Positions 10,584 to 64,000 of a stretch of DNA of 64,000 nucleotides are shown one piece after another (within the stretch, counting starts at the first letter, position 1; every line of letters starts with the position of its first letter). The stretch covers positions 17,160 to 81,159 of the forward strand of contig CALXKN010000008.1 of assembly GCA_944388995.1 (NCBI GenBank), in the 5' to 3' direction. A program made the translations under genes and the position numbers. A model generated the notes under the pieces. The model saw only the letters and a list, made by a program, of their open reading frames with translations, made no database searches and was not told where the DNA came from. The stretch is from an uncultured Spirochaetota bacterium (GTDB lineage: Bacteria; Spirochaetota; Spirochaetia; JAFGXN01).

Positions 10584-10636
10584 AATCTTACCTCAATTTC
10601 GATTATAATATATTGAACGAAATTTGTCACGTCTTT

Positions 10637-12579: not shown

Positions 12580-12643
12580 GCCGCAAAAAAAAGCATCAAC
12601 CGTTATTTTAAACCGATTGATGCTTTTGTCACTGATTTTTATC

Positions 12644-34793: not shown

Positions 34794-35228
34794 TCAATTT
34801 TCCGATATTATTTTTTTGATTTCTTTTATAACGGAATTTAGTTTTTTCTGTTCTTCTTTACTTTTCGGAATCAAGTCGGAGCAGTAGCGGTCTTTAAATA
34901 AATCGGGACGGGAAACATAAAAAATTTCTTTGAGATTTTCACATCCTTTGTTTTTTCTCAAACCGTCAATGATTTTTCCCTCTATGAATTTCATCGTAAT
35001 TTGGAACGATGAATGGGAAACGGCTGCAATCAGTCTGGTTCCGTTTTTATCAAAATATAAAGGATAACTGTTTTCAGCCAAACCGGCGCCAACAATTTCC
35101 TTCCAGTTATGAAAAGGCGATTTTTTTACAATTTTTGATTCTTCCAGTAAAGAAGCGAGTGAAACCGTTTTTATAACTTTTCCGTATTCTTTTAATTTCA
35201 ATTCTTCAAAAAACGGACGACCGTTCAC
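34794..35228 (-). CDS. DUF721-family protein (recF-linked)
   Basis: 144 aa. Conserved position immediately downstream of recF. Confidence 0.6.
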   Translation of the reverse strand: MNGRPFFEELKLKEYGKVIKTVSLASLLEESKIVKKSPFHNWKEIVGAGLAENSYPLYFDKNGTRLIAAVSHSSFQITMKFIEGKIIDGLRKNKGCENLKEIFYVSRPDLFKDRYCSDLIPKSKEEQKKLNSVIKEIKKIISEN

Positions 35229-37400: not shown

Positions 37401-37646
37401 AAAATTTCTCCTTATAAACAGATAACGATTAATATATTAATATATATTAATTCATTATCTTTATTACACTGTTGATTTGTTGATAATCCTTTTAAATCCT
37501 TTTAACATATAAAATAAGCTGTATAACAGTCTGTCAGTTAAAAGTGTTTTCATGTATGTAAATTGTCAGTTTCTCCTTTTTCTTTTAAAAAGCATATTCA
37601 TATCATATCAAAAAAAACAGAGTTTGCACAGTTTTTATATAAGTTA
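37401..37646. other. Candidate oriC: AT-rich dnaA-dnaN intergenic region with degenerate DnaA boxes
   Basis: 246 bp at about 25% GC in a ~50% GC genome. DnaA-box-like TGTTGATAA (37478-37486) and TTATCAACA (37645-37653). The dnaA-gyrB gap is only 94 bp. Confidence 0.45.
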
Positions 37647-39029
37647 TCAACAGTTTTTCAGACTGTTTTGAATTTCATTGATGTCGGATTTTAAAATGGA
37701 GTCAAACTGAATGCGGTTCGAAATTTTATTTTTTGAATTAATGACTGTTGAGTGATCCTGTCCGAAATACTCTCCGATTTCGGTTGTGGTCAGTTCCGTC
37801 ATTTGAGTTGCGATGTAAACGGCGGCTTGTCTGTGTATGATAATATTTTTTTTTCTGCTTTTTGATTTTATATCGGCGGTCGGAATATTGTAAAAGTCGG
37901 CAACTTTTTTGACAATCAAATCCATGGAAATTTTTGTATTGTTCTGAACTTTGGACATATTTTTATTCTCTTTGATATACTCTTTTGCATCTTCCAAAGT
38001 TCCCGTATCCGAATTAAAATCGATAAAGAAGAGAAAGGATTTTAAAATTCCTTCCAAATCACGGACGTTTCCGAAAATATTTTCCGAAAGATAAAAGTAG
38101 ACCTCCTCTTCCAGTTTTAAATTTTTATGATTGAAGATATTCTCTTTTTTCAGCTGTTCGGTTTTCTGCTTTAAAATTTTGAATTTAACGTCTGCCGTCG
38201 GTTCGGAAATATCAACCGTAATTCCGCTTTTAATCCGCGAAGCCAGTCTGTCGGTAAAATTCGGAAGTTCCGAAATCGGTCTGTCGCAGGTAAAACAAAT
38301 CTGTTTTCCGTTATCTTTCAGTTTATTGAAAAGAATAAAAAGTTCATGCTGAAGACCGTCTTTGCCTTTAAAAAGATGAATGTCGTCAATTAAAAAAGCG
38401 TCGGCATTTTCGAATAAAGAAAAACTTGTGTTGTTTTTTTTATCCATTTTGGATTTTACATTGTCGTAAAGGGCGTCAATTAAATCCTGGGAACTGATAC
38501 AGATGACATTCATTTCCGGATTTTCTTTGAGAATACGGTGGGCAATGGCCTGCATTAAATGGGTTTTTCCCATTCCGACCTGACCTAAAATCAAAAGCGG
38601 GTTACAGGCTTCCGATCCGATGTGTGACGCTGCCAGCAAAGCGATTTTTTTTGCGTGGCTGTTGTTCTGTCCTTCGATAAAAGTTTCGAATGTGTACAGC
38701 GGATTCAATTTACAGAATCTGTTTTCCTTGTTTTGTTTTTCCGGTGTTTCCGACGGGGATTCTTTTTTTGACGGATTCGCTACCGCAACCGGTTCTTCGC
38801 TGATGACGTAGTTTAAGGAAATTTCGTCGTCAAAACTGATGTTCAGATAGTTTTCGATATCGGACTGATAATTTTTTTTGATTTTTGATTCGATGAAAGA
38901 AGGACAGGTGATTGTCAGTGTTTTTCCGTTCAGAGAAAACGAAACATAGTCGAAAAAAGGAGTAAAATTTTTCTTTTTAATCTTTTTCAGATAATCAACC
39001 AAGTCTTCTTTCAACTCATCGTTATTCAT
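37647..39029 (-). CDS. dnaA: Chromosomal replication initiator DnaA
   Basis: AAA+ Walker A GQVGMGKTHL and a C-terminal DnaA-box-binding HTH. Confidence 0.95.
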   Translation of the reverse strand: MNNDELKEDLVDYLKKIKKKNFTPFFDYVSFSLNGKTLTITCPSFIESKIKKNYQSDIENYLNISFDDEISLNYVISEEPVAVANPSKKESPSETPEKQNKENRFCKLNPLYTFETFIEGQNNSHAKKIALLAASHIGSEACNPLLILGQVGMGKTHLMQAIAHRILKENPEMNVICISSQDLIDALYDNVKSKMDKKNNTSFSLFENADAFLIDDIHLFKGKDGLQHELFILFNKLKDNGKQICFTCDRPISELPNFTDRLASRIKSGITVDISEPTADVKFKILKQKTEQLKKENIFNHKNLKLEEEVYFYLSENIFGNVRDLEGILKSFLFFIDFNSDTGTLEDAKEYIKENKNMSKVQNNTKISMDLIVKKVADFYNIPTADIKSKSRKKNIIIHRQAAVYIATQMTELTTTEIGEYFGQDHSTVINSKNKISNRIQFDSILKSDINEIQNSLKNC

Positions 39030-39123
39030 AAATATCCCCTCACCATCATAACACAGGATTTGAAAAAGTCCAAGGAAAAAAAGCGAATGTTTACTTTTTA
39101 TCGGAAAAAATGTATAATGACCT

Positions 39124-41058
39124 ATGCAGAAAGATTATTCGGCAAGTAATATTCAGATTTTAAAAGGTTTGGAAGCGGTCAGAAAAAGGCCTGGTATGTA
39201 CATCGGTACGACAGGCGAAGAGGGGCTTCATCATCTTGTTTATGAGATTGTCGATAACAGTATTGACGAGGCTTTAGCCGGTTACTGCGATCAAGTTGAT
39301 GTTTTCATCGAACAAGGAAATATTATAAGAGTTGAAGATAACGGACGCGGAATTCCGACAGATATTCATCCCGAAGAGGGAGTTAGCGCTCTGGAGGTGG
39401 TTTTAACTAAACTTCATGCCGGAGGAAAATTTGATAAGAATTCGTATAAAGTTTCCGGAGGTTTGCACGGCGTCGGTGTTTCTGTTGTCAACGCTCTTTC
39501 GGAATGGCTGGAAGTAACCGTTTACAGAAACGGAAAGATTTTTTATCAGCGTTATAAAAGAGGAATTCCGGAAAAGGCGGTTGCCGTCCTGGGAGAAACG
39601 GAAAGAACGGGAACGGTTGTCAGATTCAAACCGGACGGGGAAATTTTTAAGGATACGCAGATTTTCAAATTCGACATTCTTTCATCGCGTCTGCGTGAAC
39701 TTTCGTTTTTGAATAAAGGAATCAAAATCAACATTACCGATTTCAGAACTCCCGTTCCGAAAGAAAACAAATTTCTGTTTGAAGGCGGGGTAAAATCGTT
39801 TGTGTCGTTTTTAAACGAGAACAAAAAACCGCTTCAGTCGGAACCGATTTATTTTGAATCCGAAAAAGAGACCGAAAAAGGCGTTGTAAAAATTGAAGTG
39901 GCGATGGAGTACAGCGAGAGCTACAACGAGCTGATTTTGTCTTTTGTCAACAATATCAATACGCGCGAAGGCGGAACCCATCTCAGCGGGTTTAAAACGG
40001 CTTTGACAAGAGTTTTTAACGAAAAGTTAAAAACATCCAAAGTCGGTAAGCGTTCGAAGCTGACCGAACCTTTGAGCGGTGAAGATACCCGCTTCGGTTT
40101 GACGGCCGTCGTCTCGGCAAAAGTTCCCGACCCTCAGTTTGAAGGGCAGACAAAAGCCAAACTGGGAAATACCGAAATCAGAAAAATTACGGAAACAATC
40201 GTTTACGATAATCTGCTGCTGTATTTTGAGCAGAATCCCGATACGGTCGAAGTGATACTTTCAAAAGCGGTGGAATCTTCCATGGCGCGGATGGCCGCTC
40301 AGCGCGCGCGCGCGAATGTGCTTCGGAAAAACAGTCTGGAAAGCGGATCCCTTCCCGGAAAATTGGCCGACTGTTCGGAAAAAGATCCGTCGCTTTGTGA
40401 GATTTACATCGTTGAGGGAGATTCAGCAGGAGGAAGCGCCAAAGGAGGGCGTGATAGCAAACATCAGGCCATTCTTCCTCTTTGGGGAAAAATGCTGAAT
40501 GTCGAAAAAGCCAGAATCGAGCAGGTGGTAGACAACGATAAACTGAAGCCGGTGATTCAGGCTTTGGGAACAAACGTCGGAAAGCACTTTAATTTGGAAA
40601 AGTTACGGTATGACAAAGTCATCATTATGGCCGATGCCGACGTTGACGGTTCCCATATCCGTACACTGCTGCTGGCGTTTTTTTTCCGCTATATGACGCA
40701 GTTAATCGAGACCGGGCATGTTTATCTGGCAATGCCGCCGCTTTATAAAATCGAATATAAAAAAAAGCACCATTACGCATACGACGATAATGAAAAAGAC
40801 CGGATTCTGAACGAGATCGGCGTTTCGGAAGAAGAGAATTCTGTAAAAATTCAACGGTACAAAGGTCTCGGAGAGATGAATCCGGAACAACTTTGGGATA
40901 CAACGATGAATCCGGAAACAAGGCAAATGATGAAAGTGACAATGGAAGATGCCGTTGAAGCCGACAGAATTTTTACCGTTTTAATGGGAAGCGAAGTCGA
41001 GCCCAGGAAAAAATTCATTGAAGAAAACGCGTTGTCGGTCACTAATCTGGATATTTAG
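39124..41058 (+). CDS. gyrB: DNA gyrase subunit B
   Basis: GHKL ATPase motifs, Toprim EGDSAGG, and C-terminal signature. Extended -10 TGTATAAT at 39107-39114. Confidence 0.95.
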   Translation: MQKDYSASNIQILKGLEAVRKRPGMYIGTTGEEGLHHLVYEIVDNSIDEALAGYCDQVDVFIEQGNIIRVEDNGRGIPTDIHPEEGVSALEVVLTKLHAGGKFDKNSYKVSGGLHGVGVSVVNALSEWLEVTVYRNGKIFYQRYKRGIPEKAVAVLGETERTGTVVRFKPDGEIFKDTQIFKFDILSSRLRELSFLNKGIKINITDFRTPVPKENKFLFEGGVKSFVSFLNENKKPLQSEPIYFESEKETEKGVVKIEVAMEYSESYNELILSFVNNINTREGGTHLSGFKTALTRVFNEKLKTSKVGKRSKLTEPLSGEDTRFGLTAVVSAKVPDPQFEGQTKAKLGNTEIRKITETIVYDNLLLYFEQNPDTVEVILSKAVESSMARMAAQRARANVLRKNSLESGSLPGKLADCSEKDPSLCEIYIVEGDSAGGSAKGGRDSKHQAILPLWGKMLNVEKARIEQVVDNDKLKPVIQALGTNVGKHFNLEKLRYDKVIIMADADVDGSHIRTLLLAFFFRYMTQLIETGHVYLAMPPLYKIEYKKKHHYAYDDNEKDRILNEIGVSEEENSVKIQRYKGLGEMNPEQLWDTTMNPETRQMMKVTMEDAVEADRIFTVLMGSEVEPRKKFIEENALSVTNLDI

Positions 41059-41067
41059 GAGTCGGCC

Positions 41068-43518
41068 ATGGAAGAAACGCAGCCGGGAAATATCATTCCC
41101 GTATCCATAGAAGATGAAGTCAAACAGTCTTATCTGAATTATGCCATGTCGGTTATCGTCAGCCGCGCGTTGCCGGACGTCCGCGACGGACTGAAACCGG
41201 TTCACCGCAGAATCTTATACGCGATGAATGAACTGGGACTGGCGTCAAATAAAGAAACCAAAAAATGCGCCCGCATTGTCGGTGAAGTTTTGGGTAAGTA
41301 CCATCCGCACGGCGATCAGTCGGTTTACGACGCGTTGGTCCGTATGGCGCAATGGTTTTCGCTGAAGTATCCTCTGATTTACGGCCAGGGCAATTTCGGA
41401 AACTTGGACGGCGATTCGGCCGCCGCCATGCGGTATACCGAAGCCAAAATGGAAAAGTACGCTGAATTGATGATGACAGACATCAATAAAGATACGGTTG
41501 ACTGGATGCCGAATTATGATGAATCGACGCAGGAACCGACCGTTCTTCCTTCAGCTTTTCCGAATTTGCTTGTCAACGGATCAAACGGAATTGCTGTCGG
41601 TATGGCGACGAATATGGCTCCGCATAATATCAACGAAGTCTGCGCTGCTGTTTCCGCCTATATCCGGAATCCCGATATTACCGTTGAAGAATTGATGCAG
41701 TATATAAAAGGCCCCGATTTTCCGACCGGCGGTCTTATTTACGGTACAGAAGGAATTAAAAAAGCGTACAGAACGGGTCGCGGAAAAGTTTTGATTCGGT
41801 CAAAGTGTTCGATTGAGACAATGAAATCCGGAAGGATGTGCATTGTTGTTACCGAAATTCCTTACATGGTCAACAAAAAGTCGTTGCTGGAACGGATTGC
41901 CGATTTGGTGAAAGACAAAAAAATCGAAGATATTTCCGCTCTGCGCGATGAATCTTCCGACAGGGTTGGCGTCCGGATCGTTATTGAGTTGAAAAAAGAC
42001 GCCAATGTCAAATTGGCGCTCAATAAACTTTATCTGCTTTCCGATCTCCAGAAAAGTTTCAGTATTATCAATTTGGCTTTGGTGAAAGGCCGTCCGGAAA
42101 CATTAAATTTAAAACAGCTGATTTTTCATTATGTTGAACACCGGAAAGAAGTGGTTACCCGCAGAACGGTTTTCGATTTGAATAAAGCCAAAGCCCGCTG
42201 TCATATTCTGGAAGGGTTAAAAATTGCGCTTGCCAATATCGATGAAATCATCGCCCTTATTAAAGCGTCAAAAACGGTTGATGAGGCAAGAAAGCGCTTG
42301 ATTGAACGTTTTGCCTTTTCCGAAATTCAAGCCAACGCCATCCTCGAAATGAGACTTCAGAAACTGACCAACCTGGAAACGGAAAAAATCCTGAACGAGT
42401 TGGCGGAAATCCTGAAAATGATTGCGTATTACGAAGACTTGCTGACACATGAAGATAAACTGATGGGGGTTGTACGGTCGGAAATCGAGCAAGTTTCCGA
42501 AGCAAATCAGTCAGACCGGCAAACCGAAATTCTGCTGCAGGAAGCGGAAGAAATCGACGCCGAAGACATGATTGCCGAAGAAAACGTGGTTGTTCTGATT
42601 TCAAACAAAGGTTTTATCAAACGGCAGCCCGTTTCATCATACCGGATTCAAAACCGCGGCGGCGCCGGTTCTTCTTCGACAAAATTTCATGTTGACGATT
42701 TTCTTGAACATCTTTTTATTGCCTCAACTCATGAGTACATCGTCTTTCTGACAAACGAAGGACGGGCTTATTATCTGAAAGTTCACGAAATTCCCGAAAG
42801 CAGCAAAGCGGCTAAAGGAACGCATATCAAACAGCTGCTTTCCATTACCGCAAACGAAGAGATTTCCGCTGTAGTAGCTTTAAAGGAATTTAATGAAACT
42901 TCGTTTTTATTTATGGCAACCGGATGCGGAAATGTTAAGCGTCTGGCTACATCAGAGCTGGAAAACGCCAAAACGCGCGGAAAAATCGTAATCCGTCTGC
43001 AGCAGGGCGACCGCCTTGTCAGCGTTATTCCGACAGACGGAAAACGGGAAATGTTTCTCGTTACAAGAAGGGGGCTTGCCCTCCATTTTAAAGAGGAAGA
43101 CGTCCGCGTTATGGGAAGAACCGCCTCCGGCGTGCGCGGAATCAGATTAACCAAAGGTGATGAAGTCGTTGCCGTTCTGTCTTTTAAGGAAAACGAACAG
43201 CTTTTTCTGATTTCCGAATTTGGATTTGCAAAGAGAACTAATCTTGAAAACAGCACTTCGCACTCGCGCGGATCGAAGGGAATCATTTACTATAAAGCCG
43301 GAGAAAAGACAGGCGAACTGGTCGGCGCTCTATGCGTTTCAGAAAAAGACGAATTGGTCTGCATTACCTCTCAAGGAATGACATTAAAATTGAAAGTTGA
43401 TCAAATCCCCGTATTGGGAAGATCTGCTTCAGGCGTGCGTGCGGTTCGCGTAAAAGAACCTGATTGTCTCGTCGGAGTGGCGCGCGTTGTTAACGAAGAT
43501 GCTCCGGATGAAAAATAA
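41068..43518 (+). CDS. gyrA: DNA gyrase subunit A
   Basis: Active-site Tyr region (AAMRYTEA) and C-terminal beta-pinwheel repeats. Confidence 0.95.
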
Positions 43519-55218: not shown

Positions 55219-55254
55219 GCCGCCATAGTAAAAGAAAGCCGCCGTCCTGTCAAC

Positions 55255-55421
55255 CTTTTCGTTTTTTGGGCGCGCGCCCCTGCGGGGCGCCGGGCTTTCC
55301 GCTGCAATTCGCAGCCTCCCTGCGCCTTCACCGCGGCAAAGCTGCCGCTTTGCCCTGCGCCTTCTCTCCGTCGGCAGCTCATTTCCGCTTCAATCCCTCG
55401 CGCCTTCGGCAAGGTGCTGCG
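55255..55421. repeat. GC-rich 166-bp direct repeat, copy 1
   Basis: Near-identical (1 indel) to 56426-56591. About 70% GC with internal hairpins (ggcaaagc-tgcc-gctttgcc; gggcgcgcgcccc…ggggcgcc). Confidence 0.9.
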
Positions 55422-55515
55422 GAAATCGGCATTTTATTGTTTTAGTGTAAAAATGGGAACTTCCGAAAACAGTCAACCGTTTTTCGGAAAAATAACTGCC
55501 CTAAACGTATTTTTG

Positions 55516-56304: not shown

Positions 56305-56425
56305 AGCGGAGGCGCGAAACAACTGAGTCCGGTATGAAAGTAGAAGAAATGGGAGCGAAAACTCTTTCAATCGCCACTGATTCTGCCAGCATCTTTACAT
56401 TTGGCTCCGCCCCCCCTCGCTGAAT

Positions 56426-56591
56426 CTTTTCGTTTTTTGGGCGCGCGCCCCTGCGGGGCGCCGGGCTTTCCGCTGCAATTCGCAGCCTCCCGCGCCTTCA
56501 CCGCGGCAAAGCTGCCGCTTTGCCCTGCGCCTTCTCTCCGTCGGCAGCTCATTTCCGCTTCAATCCCTCGCGCCTTCGGCAAGGTGCTGCG
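56426..56591. repeat. GC-rich 166-bp direct repeat, copy 2
   Basis: See copy 1. Preceded by a C7 tract (56410-56416). Confidence 0.9.
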
Positions 56592-56655
56592 AAAGAGGCG
56601 TCTGAAAACTATAAATATGAGAACAATCTCATTTAAACCTCATCCATTTTTATCT

Positions 56656-59541
56656 TCAGCAGAAATGCGCCATATCGCGCGGATAATACTTGCAGTCGTG
56701 CAGTTCCGTGTCGTCAAGCCCCAGCGCCTTTACCAGGGCAGCAGACGCTATGCACCAGTACCCGCGGTACTGGTTCTTTTTCAAGTCAAATTTTGTTATA
56801 AGCCCATCAGTCTTCGTGTGAATCCACTGTCTTTTAAGATACCGTTTTAACCGCTCAACAGCCGCCGCTTTATTCTCTTTTGAAAGCAGTACCACCTCAT
56901 ATACCGCATTGGAATATTTCGGACAGCAGAGCTTTTCCGTGCGTATCTGCCAGGATGAGTCCAGCGTCTGCATAAGGAAATCCAGATAAAAATCCCGCTG
57001 TTCCGATTTTTGTAACAATTTTCGATAGTCATCCAGAAATTCAGTCCTGTTAAAAAGCATAATCAAGTACAGAACAGTTTCCATATCTTCATAATTATCA
57101 TTGCCGTCCTGTGCGTCTATCAAATGACGCAAAATCAGGTCTACTTCGGGAAGCAGCTCATGCATATCTAGCCCTAAGGAATATCCTGTATAAAATTTGT
57201 AAAATGCATAAGTATATATTTGATATTTAAACGCTCTTATGTCCGATTCTGCCTGATGTTCATCAGTCTCAATATTATGATGATGATACGTTTGCAGTAT
57301 TTCTTTCAGCTTTTGGGAATCTTTCTTGAATCTTTCGTCAAAATATTCCTGGGGTTTGACTTTATCCCTCATCATTCTTACCCGGGGCGGAAGTTTTTCC
57401 CGCTCCTCCTCCGTAAGAAATTGCGACAGTTCAACTAAAAAGGGCTCTATAAACTCCGACATGAGTTTCGCTTTATTCCCGGCTGAGTGATCATAAGGTA
57501 TTTCAATTGCCGATGTCCGCCGTTTCTCATCCTTCCACAAGCGTCCTATTTTAATAAATGAACCGCCTTTCTCAAATATGTACAACGATATAATCAGTGT
57601 GCAGTCTTCATACTCACATTCTATATAATCTTGCTCCCCCAAGCAGTAATCTCTGTAGGTAAGATTCCTCAAAGTGGTTATTATCCAGGGTATCCACTCT
57701 TTTTTGATGACAACACTATCCCATGACTGCCATGACCCGGTACCGAAACGGCTGCCGGTTCTGGTGTTGATTCGTAGTTCGCCTTTGGGACTCCAGGGCG
57801 TGGGAAGTTTTTTCCGTTCTTCTTCAGGAAGAAATTGTGACAAGGCCACTAAGAAGGGTTCTATAAATTCCGACATGATTTTCAAGTCGTTGTCCGATTC
57901 TTCAAAATTAAATTCGAAACGGGTATAACGCCACTTTGATGTCAGGGTATAACTCTGCTCATTTTTTGCATGCCAAGGAAAATAAGGTATTTCAAGTGCC
58001 GGCGATATCTTCTTTTCATCCTTCCACATGGGAAATATTTTTATATAGGAATACCCATCCCCTATAGGACAGATACTTAATGTTAATTGGCACGTTCCCC
58101 ATTTATTTATGATGCTTTCAACTCCTGTTTGATAATTATCAACACTAAGATTTCTCAATGTGCTTATTATCCAGGGTATCCGGTTTTTTTGTATAACAAT
58201 ACTTTTCTGCTGCCCGCCGCCGAATGTACCGGTTCTTTTTCCGTTAATCCGTAATTCATCGTTATCTAATTCCTCGAAGCTGTATTCAAAATCGGCATTC
58301 AGAGTTTTTTTGCTTTGATATTTTGTTATCTTCTCTATTTTGGCTACTATCGATTCGTCGTCCGACTTATCGGTTTCGCCTGCATACCAATCTTTGCCTT
58401 CGAGCCATACCCCGAACCAGAAAGGAAGATCCCCCCAAGGTCTTTGACAGAGTTCTTTCTTTTCGTTGACACTCCAGGGGGGCGACAGTTTACCCCTTTC
58501 TTCTTCCGTGAGAAACTGCGACAATGCAACCAGAAACGGCTCTATAAATTCCGACATTAATTTTGTTTCTTTCCGGGATACATAGGGTATTTCAATATTC
58601 CATGAACTCTTATTTTCATTTTTCCAGACAGGATAAATTTTGATATAGGAATAATCAAAGGGTACTACATTTATAATAAAACTTAAATTACAGTAACCGT
58701 ATTCATATACGAGAGTTTGCGGGGTGTTATAATCGTCGATAGTGGCATTTCTTAGTGTGGTAATGATCAAAGGTATCCACGCTTTTTTTATGATAATACT
58801 TTCCCATTGTCCCCTGCCGAATGAATCTGTTCGCTTTGCATTGATTTCCAACTCGTCATCATTTAATTCTTCATTGTCAGCTTTTTCCTCAAAATAAAAT
58901 TCGAAATGAACATTCCCGCCCTTACTGATCAGGTATTCTTTTTCTGCCAGTCCGTATTGTGTTATACCGGTCATTGCTTTGAAAAAATTGAGGGAACCGC
59001 TTTCCTTATCGGCAAAAATGATGTTCTGTTTTTTGTTTTCCCTCCAGGGAGGCGGAAGTTGTGTTCTTTCTTCTTCGGTAAGGAATTGTGCCAATTCAAC
59101 CAAAACAGGTTCGATAAATTCCGCCATTAACCTGCTTTTATCCCAGGGTAGATATGGTATTTCAATAAACGGTGTCGTTTTTTCCTTCGGTTCCTTCCAT
59201 ATGGGCATTATTTGAAGGGTCGCATAATCTTTGGCAGATGGTAAAAACTCCAGATTGACTTGACATTCTTCATATTCGTGAACGATATGTCTGTTCCAAA
59301 TCCCTTCCGGAAAGTTGATGTCGTAATCCTCAAAAGGAAGGGTTCTCAGTGTGGTGATAATCCGGGAAATCCACGCTTTTTTTATGACGATACAGTAATA
59401 CAAAGGCATACGTTCCGCTTCATCCAACAATGGAAAGGTTATTTTTTCGAAAATCCGTATTTCGTCGTTGTCCGATTCCTCAAAATGAAATTCAAAGGTA
59501 TCGGATATTTCGGCATCTCCCCTTCTGCCTGTAATGAACAT
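56656..59541 (-). CDS. Novel 961-aa protein: four tandem ~180-aa repeats plus C-terminal ~210-aa domain (paralogue of the next gene)
   Basis: Repeat hallmarks FEFxFEESDNDELRI…KRTxxFGxGxWxSxxIKKxWIPxIITTLRN…YIKIxPxWKxE…IEIPY…SEFIEPFLVxLSQFLTEEERxKLPPPW occur four times. The C-terminus is about 65% identical to the 59781-60401 product. Confidence 0.7.
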   Translation of the reverse strand: MFITGRRGDAEISDTFEFHFEESDNDEIRIFEKITFPLLDEAERMPLYYCIVIKKAWISRIITTLRTLPFEDYDINFPEGIWNRHIVHEYEECQVNLEFLPSAKDYATLQIMPIWKEPKEKTTPFIEIPYLPWDKSRLMAEFIEPVLVELAQFLTEEERTQLPPPWRENKKQNIIFADKESGSLNFFKAMTGITQYGLAEKEYLISKGGNVHFEFYFEEKADNEELNDDELEINAKRTDSFGRGQWESIIIKKAWIPLIITTLRNATIDDYNTPQTLVYEYGYCNLSFIINVVPFDYSYIKIYPVWKNENKSSWNIEIPYVSRKETKLMSEFIEPFLVALSQFLTEEERGKLSPPWSVNEKKELCQRPWGDLPFWFGVWLEGKDWYAGETDKSDDESIVAKIEKITKYQSKKTLNADFEYSFEELDNDELRINGKRTGTFGGGQQKSIVIQKNRIPWIISTLRNLSVDNYQTGVESIINKWGTCQLTLSICPIGDGYSYIKIFPMWKDEKKISPALEIPYFPWHAKNEQSYTLTSKWRYTRFEFNFEESDNDLKIMSEFIEPFLVALSQFLPEEERKKLPTPWSPKGELRINTRTGSRFGTGSWQSWDSVVIKKEWIPWIITTLRNLTYRDYCLGEQDYIECEYEDCTLIISLYIFEKGGSFIKIGRLWKDEKRRTSAIEIPYDHSAGNKAKLMSEFIEPFLVELSQFLTEEEREKLPPRVRMMRDKVKPQEYFDERFKKDSQKLKEILQTYHHHNIETDEHQAESDIRAFKYQIYTYAFYKFYTGYSLGLDMHELLPEVDLILRHLIDAQDGNDNYEDMETVLYLIMLFNRTEFLDDYRKLLQKSEQRDFYLDFLMQTLDSSWQIRTEKLCCPKYSNAVYEVVLLSKENKAAAVERLKRYLKRQWIHTKTDGLITKFDLKKNQYRGYWCIASAALVKALGLDDTELHDCKYYPRDMAHFC

Positions 59542-59780: not shown

Positions 59781-60401
59781 CTAACAGAAATGGGTCATAT
59801 CGTAGGGATAGTATTTACAGTCTTTCAGTTCCGTATCGTCAAGTTTGAGGGCTTTTACCAAAGCGGCGGCGGCGATGCACCAATACCCCCGGTACCACCC
59901 TATTTTCAGATCCCGGTTGGTTATAACACCTTCGGTTAATGACATAAACCACTGCCTTTTAAGATACCTCTTTAACCGCTGGACGGCTTCCGCCTTGTTT
60001 TCTTTTGACAGCATTACCACCTCGTATACCGAATTGGTCTCTTTGGGGCAACGAAGTTTTTCCGTACTTATCTGCCATGTGGAGTCTACTATCTGTACAA
60101 GATAATCCAGGTAAAAATCCCGCATTTTCGATTTTTGTAATAACTCCTTATATTCATCCAGAAATTCTGTCCGGTTAAAAAGAATGATTAAGTATATAAT
60201 CATTTCCATATCATCATAACCTCTGTCCCTTTCTCTCGTTGTATCAATCAAATTTCTTATGATAAGGTCTACTTCGGGAAGCAGCTCATTCATACCAAGC
60301 CCCAGGGAATAGCCTGCATAAAATTTACAAGCTGCTTCCATATATATGTGATATTTAAACGACCATACATTATATTTTTCCGGATGGCTTATTCTCTTCA
60401 T
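59781..60401 (-). CDS. Stand-alone 206-aa paralogue of the C-terminal domain of the 961-aa protein
   Basis: YxGYSLGLxMxELLPEVDLIxRxLID…CKYYPxDMxHFC is shared with the 961-aa protein. Confidence 0.7.
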   Translation of the reverse strand: MKRISHPEKYNVWSFKYHIYMEAACKFYAGYSLGLGMNELLPEVDLIIRNLIDTTRERDRGYDDMEMIIYLIILFNRTEFLDEYKELLQKSKMRDFYLDYLVQIVDSTWQISTEKLRCPKETNSVYEVVMLSKENKAEAVQRLKRYLKRQWFMSLTEGVITNRDLKIGWYRGYWCIAAAALVKALKLDDTELKDCKYYPYDMTHFC

Positions 60402-60643
60402 ATTTACTCATCCGTTCAGCAAGATCAGACGCATCCTTATTATATCTTTCCCTAAAATATTCTTCTGTTTTTATGGTGTCTCTCATCTGTTATTCCTTGT
60501 GTATTTTGTAAATTTTTGGTTTATTCTCGTTATACATAACATTGCCATTTTCATCAAGTTGGTAATATGTTACTTTTCCTCCCTTCGGAACGCCTGCGGC
60601 GTGGCTACAATCCTTTGTGCGAGAAGATTTTTATCAATGGTGT

Positions 60644-60700
60644 CCGTACACACCCATTGATGTTGTCAAAGAACTCCTTCTGTACGGAGATAGGGGGAGG
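60644..60700. repeat. 57-bp exact repeat with 7-bp inverted repeat (CCGTACA…TGTACGG), copy 1
   Basis: Identical to 63943-64000. Starts 2 nt after the stop of the 75-aa gene. Confidence 0.9.
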
Positions 60701-60701
60701 G

Positions 60702-60929
60702 TTATTCAAAAGTTATTACCATATGCGAACCTGCCGTTTTTTCGGTTACTTTCTGTATAATCTCTTTTTTGTCATCTTCAGTTAATGGCTCGTTTTCTGG
60801 AACAAGCCAATTTTTCATTGAACTTTTATAACAGACAAAACCGCCTACTATCATTTCGCCTGCGATTCTCGCAGTTCTGCCATCGAGTTCTACATCTATG
60901 TATGTGTTTGTTCCGGTTATTTTTGTCAT
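60702..60929 (-). CDS. 75-aa hypothetical protein (partner of DUF600-like gene in duplicated module)
   Basis: MTKITGTNTYIDVELDGRTARIAGEMIVGGFVCYK…. A truncated second copy lies at 62300-62353. Confidence 0.5.
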   Translation of the reverse strand: MTKITGTNTYIDVELDGRTARIAGEMIVGGFVCYKSSMKNWLVPENEPLTEDDKKEIIQKVTEKTAGSHMVITFE

Positions 60930-60938
60930 ATATTAATC

Positions 60939-61271
60939 CTATGCATTATCCCATTCGTCTTGAAGAGCCTGATCCCATTCAAAGGTCATATCAAAGTGAC
61001 CGTTCTTTTCAAGGGTGTAAATAGCTTTGTTCCATTGTGCAAAATGTAACTCTTTTGCACTATTATGAAATTTTATTAAATCAATTTTTGTTTCTCGATT
61101 AAGTGCTAAGTTTAAAGCATTTTTCCATTCTCCATTAATCTGATATTTTGCATTCGTACCAATATATTTATCACTACATTCAATATTCAGTTCAATTTTA
61201 TCCCAAGAGGAATCAATACTATCATTCAATTGCGAACCAATATTTTTATATATATCTTCAATATTTTTCAT
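60939..61271 (-). CDS. DUF600 (YezG/EsaG)-like putative immunity protein, copy D
   Basis: N-terminus IEDIYKNI…SSWDKIEL and C-terminus WNKAIYTLEKNGHFDMTFEWD fit the DUF600 pattern (…EWEKVYLY…, W.NL.L..ER.G.F.IDYDY). AGGAG RBS overlaps the upstream nuclease-fragment stop. Confidence 0.5.
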   Translation of the reverse strand: MKNIEDIYKNIGSQLNDSIDSSWDKIELNIECSDKYIGTNAKYQINGEWKNALNLALNRETKIDLIKFHNSAKELHFAQWNKAIYTLEKNGHFDMTFEWDQALQDEWDNA

Positions 61272-61282
61272 AAATACTCCTA

Positions 61283-61657
61283 TTAATTTAAGAAGAACAA
61301 ATTTTCTGTTTTTTCTATTTTTCCATCCGATGTTTTTATAATGTATGTTACATCAAAATCTGTCGGTCTTAGATTATCAGCATAGTTTATTTTTATATCA
61401 ACTTCAACCTTTTTTCCCTCTGAAAGTGCATCGTTCCATTTTTTTTCCATGGTTTTCCATTCACCATTATTTAGTGTGGCGGTTTGTGGAACATAATTTA
61501 TTTGTTCTCCAGGACCATTGAAAATTCTTGCAATAATATGTCCGCCCTGGTCATCACCTTTAATACCATCTTTTATATCAACTGATTTTCCTTGTTGATA
61601 AACATTTCTGTCTTTTGTTTCAAGTTTTAATTCTCCGCTTACTTTGTTTTACAACTA
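61283..61657 (-). pseudogene. Orphan/pseudogenised nuclease toxin C-terminal domain (Serratia NucA-like bba-Me / Endonuclease_NS_2, EsaD/YeeF-type)
   Basis: Minus-strand frame encodes …GDDQGGHIIARIFNGPGEQINYVPQTATLNNGEWKTMEKKW… (compare Serratia DRGHQ…NITPQKSDLNQGAW). It has no start codon and in-frame TAG (61655-61657) and TAA (61649-61651). An upstream fragment (…DADYEDIVAALNRFGTIASKRK) in the same frame extends to 61731. Confidence 0.6.
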
Positions 61658-61731
61658 TTTTCTTTTACTTGCAATTGTTCCAAAACGATTAAGTGCAGCA
61701 ACAATATCTTCATAATCAGCATCTATTTCAT

Positions 61732-62262
61732 CTAACTGTCCCAGATTTCCTTAAATTTTAAACCTTTGATACTGTTTTTCTTAACAATATCTATAAACTC
61801 ATCTGTTACAAAATAATCTCGAATAATTAATTGATTTTGTAGTTTAACTTGAAAAAGAGGTGGATAATTGTTTTCCTTAAAATAATATTGCTCAACACCT
61901 AAAATATCATTCTCAAAATACTTATATTTAGTTTTTTTTCGATCTAAGCAGTCCAAAACAGTTAAATTATTTAATAGTACAAAATCGTCATTAAGCGGAA
62001 CAAATCTTATATTTATTTGAGAAATGTCAGAAAGTACTGCCATAAATTTTTTATTTATGAAGAATCCTCTACAATCATAACATTCACAAATATCCCCTGC
62101 AGGATTATTAGAATCTCTATCGTATTCTAATTGAAAATCAGAAGGAATGCTTATTTCTATACCTTTATTAAACTGACGTAAAATTTTTCTATCAGTTTCT
62201 TCGTTTTTTATATAGCATCCTTTGTAATTATCAATATCTGTTTCTAAAATGTATATTTTCAT
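61732..62262 (-). CDS. 176-aa hypothetical protein (AT-rich, possible immunity-type protein)
   Basis: ORF with a G8 tract serving as its RBS. No known motif. Confidence 0.45.
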   Translation of the reverse strand: MKIYILETDIDNYKGCYIKNEETDRKILRQFNKGIEISIPSDFQLEYDRDSNNPAGDICECYDCRGFFINKKFMAVLSDISQINIRFVPLNDDFVLLNNLTVLDCLDRKKTKYKYFENDILGVEQYYFKENNYPPLFQVKLQNQLIIRDYFVTDEFIDIVKKNSIKGLKFKEIWDS

Positions 62263-62299
62263 ATATCCCCCCCCTAATTGTGAATTTTTAAGAAACCAC

Positions 62300-62353
62300 T
62301 CAATAATTCCTTTCGGATTGTTTGTATGTGTTTGTTCCGGTTATTTTTGTCAT
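62300..62353 (-). pseudogene. Truncated remnant of 75-aa-family gene (MTKITGTNTY then divergent, stop after 17 codons)
   Basis: The first 10 codons and 5' flank are near-identical to the 60702-60929 gene, then homology breaks. Confidence 0.6.
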
Positions 62354-62362
62354 ATATTAATC

Positions 62363-62686
62363 CTATGCATTATCCCATTCGTCTTGGAGAGTTTGATCCC
62401 ATTCAAATGTCATATCAAAATGACCATTCCTTTCAAGAGAGTAAACAGCTTTGTTCCATTTATGCTCAGGCGACATAGATTCTTGAAGTTCAAAAACGCT
62501 ATCCATTAAAGTATTTACAGTTAATAAAGGAAACTTTAATTCTTTTTTTTCAAACGATGATAAAGTATATTCTGCCTGAAATGAACACATTTTATTTAGA
62601 CTTGATTCTATTTTTACAGTCACTTTTTCCCATTTACCGGAAATATTATCTTGAACCGCCTTGCCTAATTCTTTATATAAATCCAT
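62363..62686 (-). CDS. DUF600 (YezG/EsaG)-like putative immunity protein, copy B
   Basis: C-terminus WNKAVYSLERNGHFDMTFEWDQTLQDEWDNA is near-identical to copy D. Confidence 0.5.
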   Translation of the reverse strand: MDLYKELGKAVQDNISGKWEKVTVKIESSLNKMCSFQAEYTLSSFEKKELKFPLLTVNTLMDSVFELQESMSPEHKWNKAVYSLERNGHFDMTFEWDQTLQDEWDNA

Positions 62687-62732
62687 AGCATCTCCATTAA
62701 TTGTTGAATATTTTTTTGAATAGTTGGCTCAT

Positions 62733-63842
62733 TTATTTCTCTTTATTTAAAATAAACAGATACTCAGAGACGTGTATATTACGGTTATTCAAATTTCTGC
62801 TTCCCCGGAATGTATTATAAGTCATTTCAACGGTTTTCAGTTTTCCGTAGTGTTCCAGCATTGTTTTCATTTGCTCAAAAGTAATAAATCCTTCAGAATT
62901 ATAAGAGATAATGACAAACTTTGAATCAATTTTATCTATGATTTTTTCCATGGATTTTAAGGCTGAATAAGGTTTGTTGAATTCCGAGCGGTTCCAATCC
63001 TGAGTTATCCCTGAAACTTTACTGATTTCAGCATCCAGCCTGTTCTTTATGATAAGATTCAGCATAAAATAATTTGAACCATAGGGATGCTGGTTATACG
63101 GGGGATCCAGATAAGTAATATCTATTTTTTTTAATTCCCCGGCAAGTTCCACAGCATCTTTTTTATAGATTTTAACCTTTGAATTGAAATTGCTTAAAAC
63201 CGGCTCTTTCAGTTCTATTTTTCCAAAAATGCGGGTTAAAGCGTTTTTCCCGGCAGCGCCGAAACATCCGATTCCGGTATTTTTGTCCTTGTAAAACCCT
63301 TTGAAAACCCCGCTTGTATTGACATGAACCGAAGCCTCCGTTACGAGCGGCGCTAAAAAAAATTTTTTCATGTCTTCTTCCTGCACCACTTTATCAATCA
63401 GACTGCGGTAAGTGTCGATTAACAGAGCGTTCTCATGGGTATAAAAAACCCTTTCTCCTCTTTGAATATTTCCGTCATCCTGAGGGGCATAATTTTTTGT
63501 GATAATTCTCGGTTCTTTTTTGCTGCGGCACATTTCTTCTATTATTGATTTATATTCCCGCCATTTTTCATGCGGAAAATCTTTTTTGTCAGTCAGATAG
63601 CATTCATTGATGAGGCGGGAATATTCTTCCAGATCATTGGCAATTAAAACACTGCTGTATTTTTTCAGCATCCGGGCAACAATTCCCGAACCGGAGAAAA
63701 TATCCGCACAAACAAGTTTTTCTTTTCCCAATAAACCGGCAATTTTTTTGACTTCTTCTTCTATATTCCTGATAAGCTGCCGTTTGTTCCTGATATAAGT
63801 AATGATCTGTGCAGTAAGATATTCTTTATTTTCTTCTTTCAT
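62733..63842 (-). CDS. DNA N6-adenine methyltransferase, D12 class (Dam-like, alpha type)
   Basis: Motif I DIFSGSG and motif IV DPPY in alpha-class order. 369 aa. Confidence 0.7.
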   Translation of the reverse strand: MKEENKEYLTAQIITYIRNKRQLIRNIEEEVKKIAGLLGKEKLVCADIFSGSGIVARMLKKYSSVLIANDLEEYSRLINECYLTDKKDFPHEKWREYKSIIEEMCRSKKEPRIITKNYAPQDDGNIQRGERVFYTHENALLIDTYRSLIDKVVQEEDMKKFFLAPLVTEASVHVNTSGVFKGFYKDKNTGIGCFGAAGKNALTRIFGKIELKEPVLSNFNSKVKIYKKDAVELAGELKKIDITYLDPPYNQHPYGSNYFMLNLIIKNRLDAEISKVSGITQDWNRSEFNKPYSALKSMEKIIDKIDSKFVIISYNSEGFITFEQMKTMLEHYGKLKTVEMTYNTFRGSRNLNNRNIHVSEYLFILNKEK

Positions 63843-63942
63843 GGCTGTAAAGATTTATATTGTTCCAAATTTCCGGTTTATTCTATGCTTTTTGACAGAC
63901 CTTTATACTCAGTATCCCTCTCCGCAAAAATCAACCCGGATT

Positions 63943-64000
63943 TCCGTACACACCCATTGATGTTGTCAAAGAACTCCTTCTGTACGGAGATAGGGGGAGG
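63943..64000. repeat. 57-bp exact repeat, copy 2 (runs into window end)
   Basis: Identical to 60644-60700. Confidence 0.9.

What the first reader, a model, noticed from the sequence alone, without database searches (positions are those of the whole stretch)
61283..61731. Start-less, stop-interrupted bba-Me nuclease toxin C-terminal domain upstream of a DUF600-like gene
The minus-strand frame encodes a 121-codon open segment with the His-Me-finger non-specific nuclease signature (GGHIIARIF…NYVPQTATLNNGEW, compare Serratia NucA DRGHQ…NITPQKSDLNQGAW). There is no ATG/GTG start. Two in-frame stops (TAG 61655-61657, TAA 61649-61651) separate it from an upstream same-frame fragment that extends to the stop of the 176-aa ORF. 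Its stop is 11 nt from the ATG of the DUF600-like gene, with an AGGAG between. This looks like a displaced toxin tip kept as a recombination reservoir, or a recently inactivated toxin.
Basis: seen in the sequence. Interest (0 to 1): 0.8.

Follow-up and report, generated by a model that had tools for sequence, protein, structure and literature searches.

The report
Orphan nuclease-toxin remnant with immunity gene
This is the untranslatable, front-truncated remnant of a DNA-cutting bacterial toxin sitting next to its intact antidote gene, inside a patchwork island of antidote genes and toxin debris; this kind of leftover is well known in bacterial warfare loci.

Summary
Minus strand 61286-61648 is a 121-codon open segment matching the EsaD/YeeF-type His-Me nuclease toxin domain (Pfam PF13930, E 7e-25). 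It has no start codon before codon 67. Its stop lies 11 nt, with an AGGAG, before a 110-aa gene whose predicted fold matches EsaG/DUF600 immunity proteins.

The two upstream stops are not inactivating mutations. Homology to intact relatives begins exactly at the TAA. The 86 nt upstream are the 3' tail of a different toxin gene. So this is a recombination junction that removed the first ~21 positions of the domain and all upstream sequence.

The same sequence occurs in at least 9 independent metagenome assemblies. Versions with a start codon, a complete nuclease domain and the same variable tip and immunity gene exist in other bacteria (214 aa, 194 aa; 605 aa in a Treponema). The fragment is a mosaic of two alleles.

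It sits in a low-GC array of immunity genes (DUF600-like, Imm11-like, Imm74, PoNi) with at least three other toxin remnants. Parts are 95-99.5% identical to a Mucispirillum genome bin.

It is an orphan toxin-tip/immunity cassette, a known kind. The immunity gene is most likely the selected part. A "reservoir" role is possible but unproven; no intact partner gene is visible in this strain.

The parts
61283..61648 (-). 5'-truncated EsaD/YeeF-type (PF13930) nuclease toxin domain: 121 codons plus TAA. It keeps GGH, NYVPQ, LNNGEW and the variable tip. It lacks profile positions 1-21 and any start codon.
61649..61651 (-). TAA lying exactly on the recombination junction. Homology to intact nuclease genes begins at the next base.
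61652..61735 (-). Filler: the last ~26 codons plus TAG (61655-61657) of a different toxin ORF, the L102 type, which carries an HAHH motif. Its left end supplies the stop codon of the 176-aa ORF.
61272..61282 (-). 11-nt spacer TAGGAGTATTT holding the Shine-Dalgarno-like AGGAG for the immunity gene.
60939..61271 (-). Intact 110-aa EsaG/YezG (DUF600)-fold immunity gene, cognate by position to this nuclease tip.
   Evidence: the same pair follows intact toxins in L009 and L014
60899..61036 (-). Conserved 3' block of the DUF600-like gene plus the start of the next gene; 93% identical to 62323-62460. Candidate downstream homology arm of the cassette.
60702..60929 (-). Imm74 immunity gene (75 aa).
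61732..62262 (-). 176-aa Imm11-like gene (weak match). Its natural 3' end (...WDREKD in L057) is replaced at the junction.
62323..62353 (-). 10-codon 5' stub of an Imm74 gene (MTKITGTNTY), another junction scar.
62363..62686 (-). Second DUF600/YezG-like immunity gene (107 aa).
62733..63842 (-). D12-class N6-adenine DNA methyltransferase carried inside the island.
60643..60700 (.). 58-nt perfect direct repeat, copy 1. Copy 2 is 63943-64000. Together with Imm74 it brackets the 3.3-kb low-GC segment that holds the finding.
63943..64000 (.). 58-nt direct repeat, copy 2. It runs to the window end; related contigs show a second Imm74 gene just beyond.
60490..60630 (-). 46-codon start-less open segment ending 3 nt before the PoNi start. 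Possible further toxin-tail remnant; unverified.
59781..60486 (-). PoNi immunity gene split by a frameshift into 38 aa and 206 aa.
56656..59541 (-). 961-aa ORF with tandem ~190-aa units and a C-terminal PoNi_N/PoNi_C module; the last gene of the island.

Best explanation
The feature is an orphan toxin-tip/immunity cassette inside a horizontally spread, low-GC island of immunity genes and toxin debris.

Recombination joined codon ~95 onward of an EsaD/YeeF-type nuclease toxin gene to the 3' tail of another toxin remnant. This removed the start codon, any delivery region and the first strands of the nuclease domain. The fragment therefore cannot be translated into an active nuclease (shown).

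The adjacent 110-aa EsaG/DUF600-fold gene is intact and has its own ribosome-binding site. It is most likely the selected part, protecting the cell against neighbours that deliver a nuclease with this particular C-terminal tip (inferred from the EsaD-EsaG and YeeF-YezG systems and from orphan-immunity islands).

The remnant travels with the immunity gene because tip and immunity gene move as one unit. That unit is flanked by two conserved blocks: the nuclease core upstream and the conserved 3' end of the immunity gene downstream. The same blocks would allow the tip-plus-immunity unit to be swapped into an intact toxin gene. Population data show this has happened repeatedly (crossovers shown; in-cell switching inferred).
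For: - Domain identity and truncation: PF13930 E 6.8e-25 covers only profile positions 22-130. The complete paralogue L001:5659-6297 covers 1-132 and matches EssD 8GUO_B at E 3e-15.
- Junction: homology to L001 and L009 genes begins at the TAA. The upstream 86 nt have no counterpart there and equal the 3' end of another toxin ORF.
- No start for 66 codons.
- Reproducibility: the segment is base-for-base identical in L103 and L104, and the junction filler is 100% identical in six more contigs; linkage to the chromosome is seen in L103, L104 and L094.
- Versions with a start and a complete nuclease domain carry the same tip and the same 110-aa gene: P0003/L009 (194 aa) and P0089 (214 aa). A 605-aa Treponema toxin has the same tip type and a 111-aa immunity gene 65% identical.
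- The domain is the C-terminal tip of Rhs, VgrG and other 600-3400-aa proteins in many genomes.
- Mosaicism: all 17 mismatches to the L009 allele lie in the first 102 nt and none in the last 264 (Fisher 2e-10). P0002, P0089, P0003 and the orphan join different cores to this tip at four different positions.
- Immunity fold: EsaG and BH3703 are the only significant PDB hits.
- Conserved 3' block: 79-93% identity against 47-67% in the rest of the DUF600-like genes.
- Context: DUF600-like x2, Imm11-like, Imm74, PoNi x2 and other remnants. GC is 28-30% against 44% for the window.
Against: - No expression data exist for the immunity gene or the fragment. The promoter scan is at background level.
- The tip portion of the fragment is 100% identical to an intact allele. 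There has been no time for decay, so conservation says nothing about selection.
- In the window's own strain no intact nuclease gene is visible to receive the cassette. L005 shows only a 37-codon tip remnant upstream.
- The secretion route of the intact relatives is unknown.
- The DUF600 assignment falls just below Pfam's cut-off by sequence.
- The source genome is probably a metagenome bin. Its island shares near-identical DNA with a Mucispirillum bin, so some long-range linkages could be assembly artefacts.
Confidence: 0.8

Rival explanations
1. Active reservoir: the remnant is maintained because recombination with an intact toxin gene in the same cell switches the toxin tip and immunity gene together, as shown for orphan Rhs modules in Salmonella.
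For: - The fragment shares 255 nt at 93% identity with the start-bearing paralogue in L001, with perfect tracts of 43, 38 and 24 nt.
- A second conserved block lies at the immunity gene's 3' end.
- Four different crossover points join other cores to this tip in public data.
- In L001 the start-bearing paralogue with a complete nuclease domain and the orphan lie 3.6 kb apart in direct orientation.
- Precedent: PMC3967940.
Against: - In the contig identical to the window strain (L005), the upstream nuclease is itself reduced to a 37-codon tip fused to another ORF, so no recipient is visible.
- Even the 212-aa 'head' ORF of L001 is a remnant. It starts with the last residues of an ADP-ribosyl-cyclase-like toxin domain, and its cognate immunity gene is broken.
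- The recombination seen could all have happened in donor lineages.
Confidence: 0.25
2. An ordinary gene recently killed in place by two nonsense mutations, or by sequencing errors.
For: Two in-frame stops lie only two codons apart, and the frame is open on both sides.
Against: - The sequence upstream of the TAA is not homologous to any nuclease gene. It matches another toxin's 3' end.
- The upstream frame is open for only ~31 codons and has no start.
- The same sequence is found in at least 9 assemblies from different samples.
Confidence: 0.02
3. The fragment is expressed in part. The 55-aa ORF from ATG 61450 would yield the C-terminal tip peptide, which could bind the immunity protein or complement an N-terminal nuclease fragment. 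This builds on the finding that split EsaD and YeeF halves reassemble and each bind the immunity protein.
For: - Gene callers report the 55-aa ORF in all contigs.
- PMC9616950 reports that the N- and C-terminal nuclease fragments bind EsaG independently and reassemble into an active enzyme.
Against: - There is no convincing ribosome-binding site before ATG 61450.
- The peptide starts after the catalytic His and after the Mg-binding Asn region.
- No N-terminal partner fragment is present in the window.
- There are no expression data.
Confidence: 0.05
4. The placement of the cassette in this ~44% GC chromosome is a metagenome mis-assembly that joins two organisms through shared repeats.
For: - The island is 28-30% GC against 44% for the window.
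- L001 links the same DNA to 25-35% GC housekeeping-like genes.
- L057, a Mucispirillum bin, shares pieces at 95-99.5% identity.
- Contigs break at 59537, 60576, 60893 and about 62400.
Against: - L103 (212 kb) and L104 (54 kb), from other samples, run from the 176-aa gene through the orphan cassette, Imm74 and the PoNi genes into the same chromosomal flank.
- L094 links Imm74 and PoNi to the flank at 99.99% identity.
- The exact GyrA, GyrB, 110-aa and 176-aa proteins share a 212,580-nt contig.
Confidence: 0.1

Closest known systems
EsaD-EsaG (Staphylococcus aureus T7SSb) and YeeF-YezG (Bacillus subtilis) nuclease toxin / DUF600 immunity pairs, including tandem esaG arrays shaped by recombination (PMC9616950, PMC7033585, PMC9484751)
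   Same: - Same nuclease domain family: PF13930, with EssD as the nearest structure.
- Same immunity fold (EsaG/DUF600), with the immunity gene immediately downstream.
- Several non-identical DUF600 paralogues in one locus.
- Conserved sequence blocks within the immunity genes, as described for esaG.
- Variation concentrated in the C-terminal part of the nuclease. In the EsaD-EsaG complex the C-terminal fragment of the nuclease domain is one of the two parts that contact EsaG.
   Different: - No LXG domain, T7SS genes or Firmicute host.
- The host is a diderm with a YidC periplasmic domain and ~44% GC; relatives are in Mucispirillum and Treponema bins.
- The immunity proteins are ~110 aa rather than ~160 aa.
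- The toxin copy here is a 5'-truncated remnant.
Orphan toxin-CT/immunity modules of Rhs, CdiA and related polymorphic toxin loci (e.g. Salmonella orphan Rhs, PMC3967940)
   Same: - Start-less toxin C-terminal piece that keeps a stretch of the conserved region.
- Followed by its own intact immunity gene.
- Stacked with other such modules in one orientation.
- Evidence of recombination between paralogues.
   Different: - No full-length Rhs, CdiA or other delivery gene heads the array in any contig examined.
- The truncation point lies inside the toxin domain itself, not in a pre-toxin repeat region.
- The array is dominated by immunity genes and very short toxin scars.
Acquired interbacterial defence (AID / rAID-1) immunity islands of gut Bacteroidales (bioRxiv 10.1101/471110)
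   Same: - Co-directional array of orphan immunity genes of several families.
- GC content well below the genome's.
- Near-identical DNA shared between unrelated gut bacteria.
- Pseudogenised remnants present.
   Different: - No XerD-like recombinase and no repetitive intergenic sequences. Gaps are 3-11 nt, and the conserved blocks lie inside genes.
- Different phyla.
- The island carries a DNA methyltransferase.

Membership tests
PF13930 Endonuclea_NS_2 / EsaD-YeeF-type His-Me nuclease toxin domain | Profile match above the curated cut-off | tested here: met
   88.2 bits against a cut-off of 27, E 6.8e-25.
PF13930 Endonuclea_NS_2 / EsaD-YeeF-type His-Me nuclease toxin domain | Catalytic His (GGH; H528 in EsaD) and Asn-containing metal-finger helix present | tested here: met
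   GGHIIARIF, NYVPQ and LNNGEW are retained. Alignment of the paralogue to EssD puts GGH on the residue mutated to Ala in 8GUN. PMC9616950 names H528 and N551.
PF13930 Endonuclea_NS_2 / EsaD-YeeF-type His-Me nuclease toxin domain | Complete domain (all core strands) in a translatable ORF | tested here: not met
   Profile positions 1-21 are absent, and there is no ATG/GTG/TTG before codon 67. It is a fragment of a family member, not a functional member.
Orphan toxin-CT/immunity module of polymorphic toxin systems | Toxin C-terminal piece lacking a start and a delivery region, directly followed by an intact cognate-type immunity gene | tested here: met
   The same tip and immunity pair follows intact toxins in L009 and L014.
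Orphan toxin-CT/immunity module of polymorphic toxin systems | Retains homology to an intact paralogue sufficient for recombination | tested here: met
   255 nt at 93% identity to L001:5937-6191, with perfect tracts of 43, 38 and 24 nt. Mosaic structure and population crossovers are seen.
Orphan toxin-CT/immunity module of polymorphic toxin systems | Lies downstream of a full-length toxin gene of the same family in the same locus | tested here: inconclusive
   The window has no other PF13930 copy. L001 has a 212-aa start-bearing paralogue with a complete nuclease domain upstream, but that ORF is itself a remnant. L005, identical to the window strain, shows only a 37-codon tip remnant. Sequence further upstream is not available.
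DUF600 / EsaG / YezG immunity family (PF04634, TIGR01741) | Sequence profile above the curated cut-off | tested here: not met
   The 110-aa protein scores 20.8 bits against 21.7 (E 4.5e-4); TIGR01741 scores 18.9 against 82. The 107-aa paralogue passes Pfam (23.4 bits).
DUF600 / EsaG / YezG immunity family (PF04634, TIGR01741) | EsaG/BH3703 fold | tested here: met
   Foldseek against the PDB: 8GUP_A, 8GUO_A, 2IA1 and 3I0T at E 5e-7 to 3e-6, TM(query) 0.63-0.67. The next hit has E 0.05. The model has pLDDT 77.
DUF600 / EsaG / YezG immunity family (PF04634, TIGR01741) | Neutralises the adjacent nuclease | not testable with these tools
   Needs co-expression and a nuclease assay.
rAID-1 recombinase-associated immunity islands | [quoted passage not shown] | tested here: not met
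   No recombinase domain was found among the island ORFs scanned in the window, nor among the called island genes of L001-L008 and L103-L105. Intergenic gaps are 3-11 nt. The upstream end of the island in this strain is not seen.
rAID-1 recombinase-associated immunity islands | Co-directional orphan immunity genes with GC below the genome's | tested here: met
LXG / T7SSb toxin | N-terminal LXG domain and T7SSb locus | tested here: not met
   No LXG hit in any relative, including the 605-aa L014 protein. The host has a diderm-type YidC.

The most novel reading that the evidence does not exclude
The island could be a recombinase-independent counterpart of the Bacteroidales AID/rAID systems, operating in spirochaete-like and Deferribacteres gut bacteria. 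Cassettes of 'toxin tip + immunity-specificity region' would be exchanged within and between phyla by homologous recombination. The homology arms would be two conserved in-gene blocks: the nuclease core and the DUF600 3' end plus the start of the next gene. Toxin remnants would then act as functional homology arms rather than junk. A DNA methyltransferase would travel as cargo.
Probability: 0.2. Interest if true: 0.5.

Novelty: new member of a known kind. Interest (0 to 1): 0.3.

Why it matters
The finding adds a clear, breakpoint-resolved example of an orphan EsaD/EsaG-type cassette outside the Firmicutes. It also shows that near-identical immunity and toxin-remnant modules circulate among unrelated gut bacteria: a ~44% GC diderm, Mucispirillum, and Treponema relatives.

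For annotation, such start-less nuclease pieces should be labelled as remnants, and the small downstream genes as immunity genes. It does not reveal a new mechanism.

The population-level crossovers onto one toxin tip, and the conserved blocks that flank tip plus immunity gene, give a testable model for how toxin specificity and immunity are swapped together.

Tried and rejected
- Searching with the N-terminal 93 residues of the 212-aa paralogue found only 5 short proteins and no delivery domain.
- Searching with the longer pre-toxin region from L102 found only proteins of 228 aa or less. It suggested, weakly, that the segment is the end of an ADP-ribosyl-cyclase-like toxin domain (PF02267, E 0.008, below cut-off). 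No full-length parent was recovered.
- A sequence-profile search of the PDB with four DUF600-like proteins did not find EsaG. Only the fold search did.
- NCBIfam gave only marginal TIGR01741 hits.
- The promoter and terminator scan was at background level (20 found against 18.2 expected).
- The 58-nt repeat does not fold better than shuffled sequence (z -0.78).
- The filler pattern gave no hit in viral contigs.
- The 46-codon tail before PoNi has no Pfam match.
- The Treponema locus L089 shares only a 24-residue remnant with the window.
- The source organism could not be named. No GTDB representative carries this fragment, and cluster members carry no organism names.
- Rejected ideas: sequencing error; in-place nonsense mutations; an integron-like attC structure (there is no room between genes).

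Full report
**1. The observation**

The coordinates and sequence statements are correct.
- On the minus strand, 61648..61286 is a 121-codon open segment ending at TAA 61283-61285.
- In-frame TAA (61649-61651) and TAG (61655-61657) lie just upstream.
- The first possible start in the frame is the ATG at 61450, leaving a 55-codon ORF.
- Eleven nucleotides (TAGGAGTATTT) separate the stop from the ATG of a 110-aa ORF (60939-61271).

Domain evidence:
- The 121 codons match Pfam PF13930 (Endonuclea_NS_2) at E 6.8e-25, but only over profile positions 22-130 of 132.
- They also match PF01223, the Serratia NucA family, at E 1.6e-5.
- A complete paralogue found in a related contig matches the solved S. 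aureus T7SS nuclease EssD/EsaD (8GUO_B, E 3e-15). Its GGH aligns with the catalytic histidine that was mutated for crystallisation (PMC9616950).

**2. The neighbouring gene**

Sequence models for DUF600/YezG/EsaG give only marginal scores for the 110-aa protein: PF04634 at 20.8 bits against a cut-off of 21.7, and TIGR01741 at E 1.3e-3. An AlphaFold model (pLDDT 77) settles the question. Its six significant PDB matches are all EsaG (8GUP_A, 8GUO_A) or the DUF600 protein BH3703 (E 5e-7 to 3e-6), and the next hit has E 0.05. The pair is therefore an EsaD/EsaG- or YeeF/YezG-type toxin-immunity pair (PMC9616950, PMC7033585).

**3. What the stops are**

The methyltransferase gene of the window was used to fetch contigs from public assemblies. 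One of them, L001, continues past the window end. About 3.6 kb upstream of the fragment it carries a 212-aa ORF with a complete PF13930 domain.

The DNA alignment shows that the window fragment becomes homologous to that gene, and to a second allele (L009), exactly at the TAA...TTGTAA|AACAAAGTAAGCGG. The 86 nt upstream (61650-61735) have no counterpart in those genes.

A degenerate-pattern scan of metagenome contigs found the origin of this filler. In L102 the same sequence is the 3' end of a different toxin ORF...NPHAHHILF...KKLDEIDADYEDIVAALNRFGT.
- The left end of the filler also supplies the stop codon of the 176-aa Imm11-like ORF. The natural ending of that ORF, seen in L057, is ...WDREKD.
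- The two stops are therefore junction features, not nonsense mutations. TAG is probably the other remnant's own stop, and TAA sits on the breakpoint.
- The upstream same-frame piece is open for only ~31 codons and has no start.

**4. Not an error, and really in this chromosome**

The fragment with its junction is base-for-base identical in L103 (a 212-kb contig) and L104 (54 kb), from other samples. The filler is identical in six further contigs. L103, L104 and L094 link the cassette, Imm74 and the PoNi genes to the same chromosomal flank as the window. The exact GyrA, GyrB, 110-aa and 176-aa proteins share a 212,580-nt contig.

**5. Start-bearing and full-length versions elsewhere**

Versions that have a start codon, a complete nuclease domain and the same variable tip (...DIKINYADNLRPTDFDVTYIIKTSDGKIEKTENLFFLN), followed by the same 110-aa gene:

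| Protein | Length | Source |
|---|---|---|
| P0003 | 194 aa | L009, low-GC genome |
| P0089 | 214 aa | contigs up to 71 kb |

A rumen Treponema bin (L014) encodes a 605-aa protein with a long N-terminal region, a hydrophobic segment, a nuclease domain 62% identical with the same tip type, and a 111-aa immunity gene 65% identical to ours. In other species' genomes the domain is the C-terminal tip of Rhs (L021, 1466 aa), VgrG (L052, 1202 aa) and other proteins of 600 to more than 3300 aa. It is a genuine polymorphic-toxin tip.

**6. Recombination signatures**

- All 17 mismatches between the orphan and the L009 allele lie in its first 102 nt; the last 264 nt are identical (Fisher 2e-10). The 5' part resembles the L001 paralogue instead.
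- Database proteins join different cores to this same tip at different points. P0089 crosses over after MEKKW, P0002 after SEGKKVEVD, and the orphan near GGH. P0003 has yet another core.
- The orphan shares 255 nt at 93% identity with the L001 paralogue, with perfect tracts of 43, 38 and 24 nt.
- Downstream, the last ~120 nt of all five DUF600-like genes compared, plus the start of the next gene, are 79-93% identical. Their first 240 nt are 47-67% identical. This resembles the homology blocks reported for esaG arrays (PMC9484751).
- The variable unit, toxin tip plus the variable part of the immunity gene, is therefore bracketed by two conserved blocks.
- In the EsaD-EsaG complex the C-terminal fragment of the nuclease domain is one of the two parts that bind the immunity protein. 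This fits the tip being specificity-determining; that step is inference.

**7. The surroundings**

The fragment lies in a co-directional island (56656 to beyond 64000). The 60.7-64 kb part has 28-30% GC, against 44% for the window.

Island genes:
- two DUF600-like genes
- an Imm11-like gene
- Imm74
- a frameshifted PoNi gene
- a 961-aa repeat protein ending in PoNi
- a D12 DNA methyltransferase

Other scars:
- a 10-codon Imm74 stub (62323-62353)
- the L102-type tail
- possibly a 46-codon tail before PoNi, which is unverified

L005 is 100% identical to window 62196-64000. It shows that upstream in this strain lie a partial 96-aa ORF (uncharacterised), a 70-aa ORF, a 103-aa ORF that fuses a repeat unit to only the last 37 codons of a nuclease (another tip), a DUF600 N-terminus fused to an AHH nuclease piece that lacks its AHH motif, a 180-aa homologue of the window's Imm11-like gene, and Imm74.

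No intact toxin is visible. Even the 212/214-aa ORFs begin with MAETVIFER, which in other proteins is the C-terminal end of a domain that weakly resembles ADP-ribosyl cyclases. The picture is an immunity-gene island littered with toxin debris.

**8. Host and spread**

The window holds dnaA, dnaN, recF and dciA divergent from gyrB and gyrA, and a YidC with a periplasmic domain. The host is therefore a diderm, and the island lies about 20 kb from the replication origin. I could not name the organism.

Pieces of the island are 95-99.5% identical to a contig of a Mucispirillum bin from the same study (L057). L001 links the same DNA to 25-35% GC flanking genes. Either the island has moved recently between unrelated gut bacteria, or some assemblies are chimeric. 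The long contigs in section 4 argue that the placement in this chromosome is real.

**9. Mechanism and verdict**

- Shown: the fragment is a 5'-truncated, start-less piece of an EsaD/YeeF-type nuclease created by recombination. Its partner gene is intact and has the EsaG fold. Start-bearing alleles with a complete nuclease domain and the same tip exist in other genomes. Recombination within the conserved core is recurrent.
- Inferred: the immunity gene is the selected part and protects against neighbours that carry this tip. This parallels orphan-immunity islands (10.1101/471110). The remnant is carried along because tip and immunity gene move as a unit. It could act as a homology arm for tip switching, as in orphan Rhs modules (PMC3967940). 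That role is unproven, and no recipient gene is visible in this strain.

This is a new member of a known kind, of modest interest.

Noticed in passing
window 60643-60700 and 63943-64000 (with Imm74 60702-60929, and a second Imm74 just beyond the window end, seen in L001-L008): A perfect 58-nt direct repeat plus an Imm74 gene copy bracket a 3.3-kb, 28-30% GC segment holding a methyltransferase, a DUF600-like gene, an Imm11-like gene and the orphan cassette. The upstream Imm74 copy is 93%, 97% or 99% identical to the downstream one in different contigs. The segment therefore sits in at least three upstream contexts, as expected for insertion by homologous recombination of a circular intermediate.
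   Followed up: partly
window 62733-63842 (-): A D12-class N6-adenine DNA methyltransferase (369 aa) sits in the middle of an immunity-gene island, with no restriction enzyme gene seen beside it. Whether it is cargo, an orphan methylase, or protection against a DNA-targeting toxin is unknown.
   Followed up: no
window 56656-59541 (-): A 961-aa ORF made of four or five tandem ~190-aa units (motif MSEFIEPFL..LSQFLTEEER..LPPPW), ending in a PoNi_N/PoNi_C immunity module. Pieces of the unit occur fused to nuclease fragments in other contigs (P0006/L101; L005 544-855).
   Followed up: partly
window 59781-60630 (-): A PoNi immunity gene is split by a frameshift into 38-aa and 206-aa ORFs. L103 has a 186-aa variant. 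It is preceded by a 46-codon start-less open segment that ends 3 nt before its ATG. That segment may be another toxin-tail remnant, but no domain match was found.
   Followed up: partly
window 55252-55424 and 56423-56594: Two 98-99% identical GC-rich ~175-nt direct repeats flank a nucleotidyltransferase and a HepT-like substrate-binding gene, an MNT/HepT toxin-antitoxin-like pair, at the island's chromosomal border.
   Followed up: no
window 34794-43518: Replication-origin region: dciA, recF, dnaN and dnaA on the minus strand, divergent from gyrB and gyrA on the plus strand. The cumulative GC-skew minimum lies near 35-36 kb. The toxin/immunity island is only ~20 kb away.
   Followed up: partly
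window 61439-61446 (-), A8 run in ATGGAAAAAAAATGG: Several database variants of the start-bearing nuclease gene (P0024, P0025; P0018 at a nearby A6 run) are frameshifted exactly at these homopolymers. This could be assembly error or slip-strand on/off switching of the toxin.
   Followed up: no
P0042/P0050/P0051 (56 contigs); P0007: The nuclease piece starting exactly at GGH is fused to the first ~42 residues of a T4 gp19-like tail-tube protein (PF06841). In another contig it is fused to a resolvase N-terminus at the same point. The GGH codons look like a recurrent breakpoint; the orphan's own mosaic boundary is there too. In two Mucispirillum genome contigs (L056, L057) the similarity to the nuclease likewise begins at the GGH codons.
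   Followed up: partly
L001 5540-5658 and L009 9600-9740: A conserved ~120-nt AT-rich leader (GAAGCGGCTYGCGATAAAAA...CAAGTTAAAAAA) precedes the nuclease ORF in two unrelated genomic contexts. In L009 a ~270-nt insertion with a terminator-like hairpin and a 59-aa reverse ORF replaces the first 20 codons.
   Followed up: no
L001 5659-6744: The 212-aa nuclease ORF has a complete domain, but its cognate DUF600 gene is cut after 43 codons and fused to an AHH nuclease piece lacking the AHH motif. The ORF's own N-terminus (MAETVIFER...) is the tail of another, ADP-ribosyl-cyclase-like toxin domain. In P0066 a domain of this type runs directly into an Imm74 sequence in one ORF, suggesting that toxin domains and remnants are nested in series.
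   Followed up: partly
L057 (Mucispirillum bin BRZ_AT bin62) 10000-12650 versus window 60576-62497: Island pieces are 93-99.5% identical between a ~33% GC Mucispirillum contig and this ~44% GC chromosome. This suggests very recent transfer of immunity cassettes between phyla in the same gut communities.
   Followed up: partly
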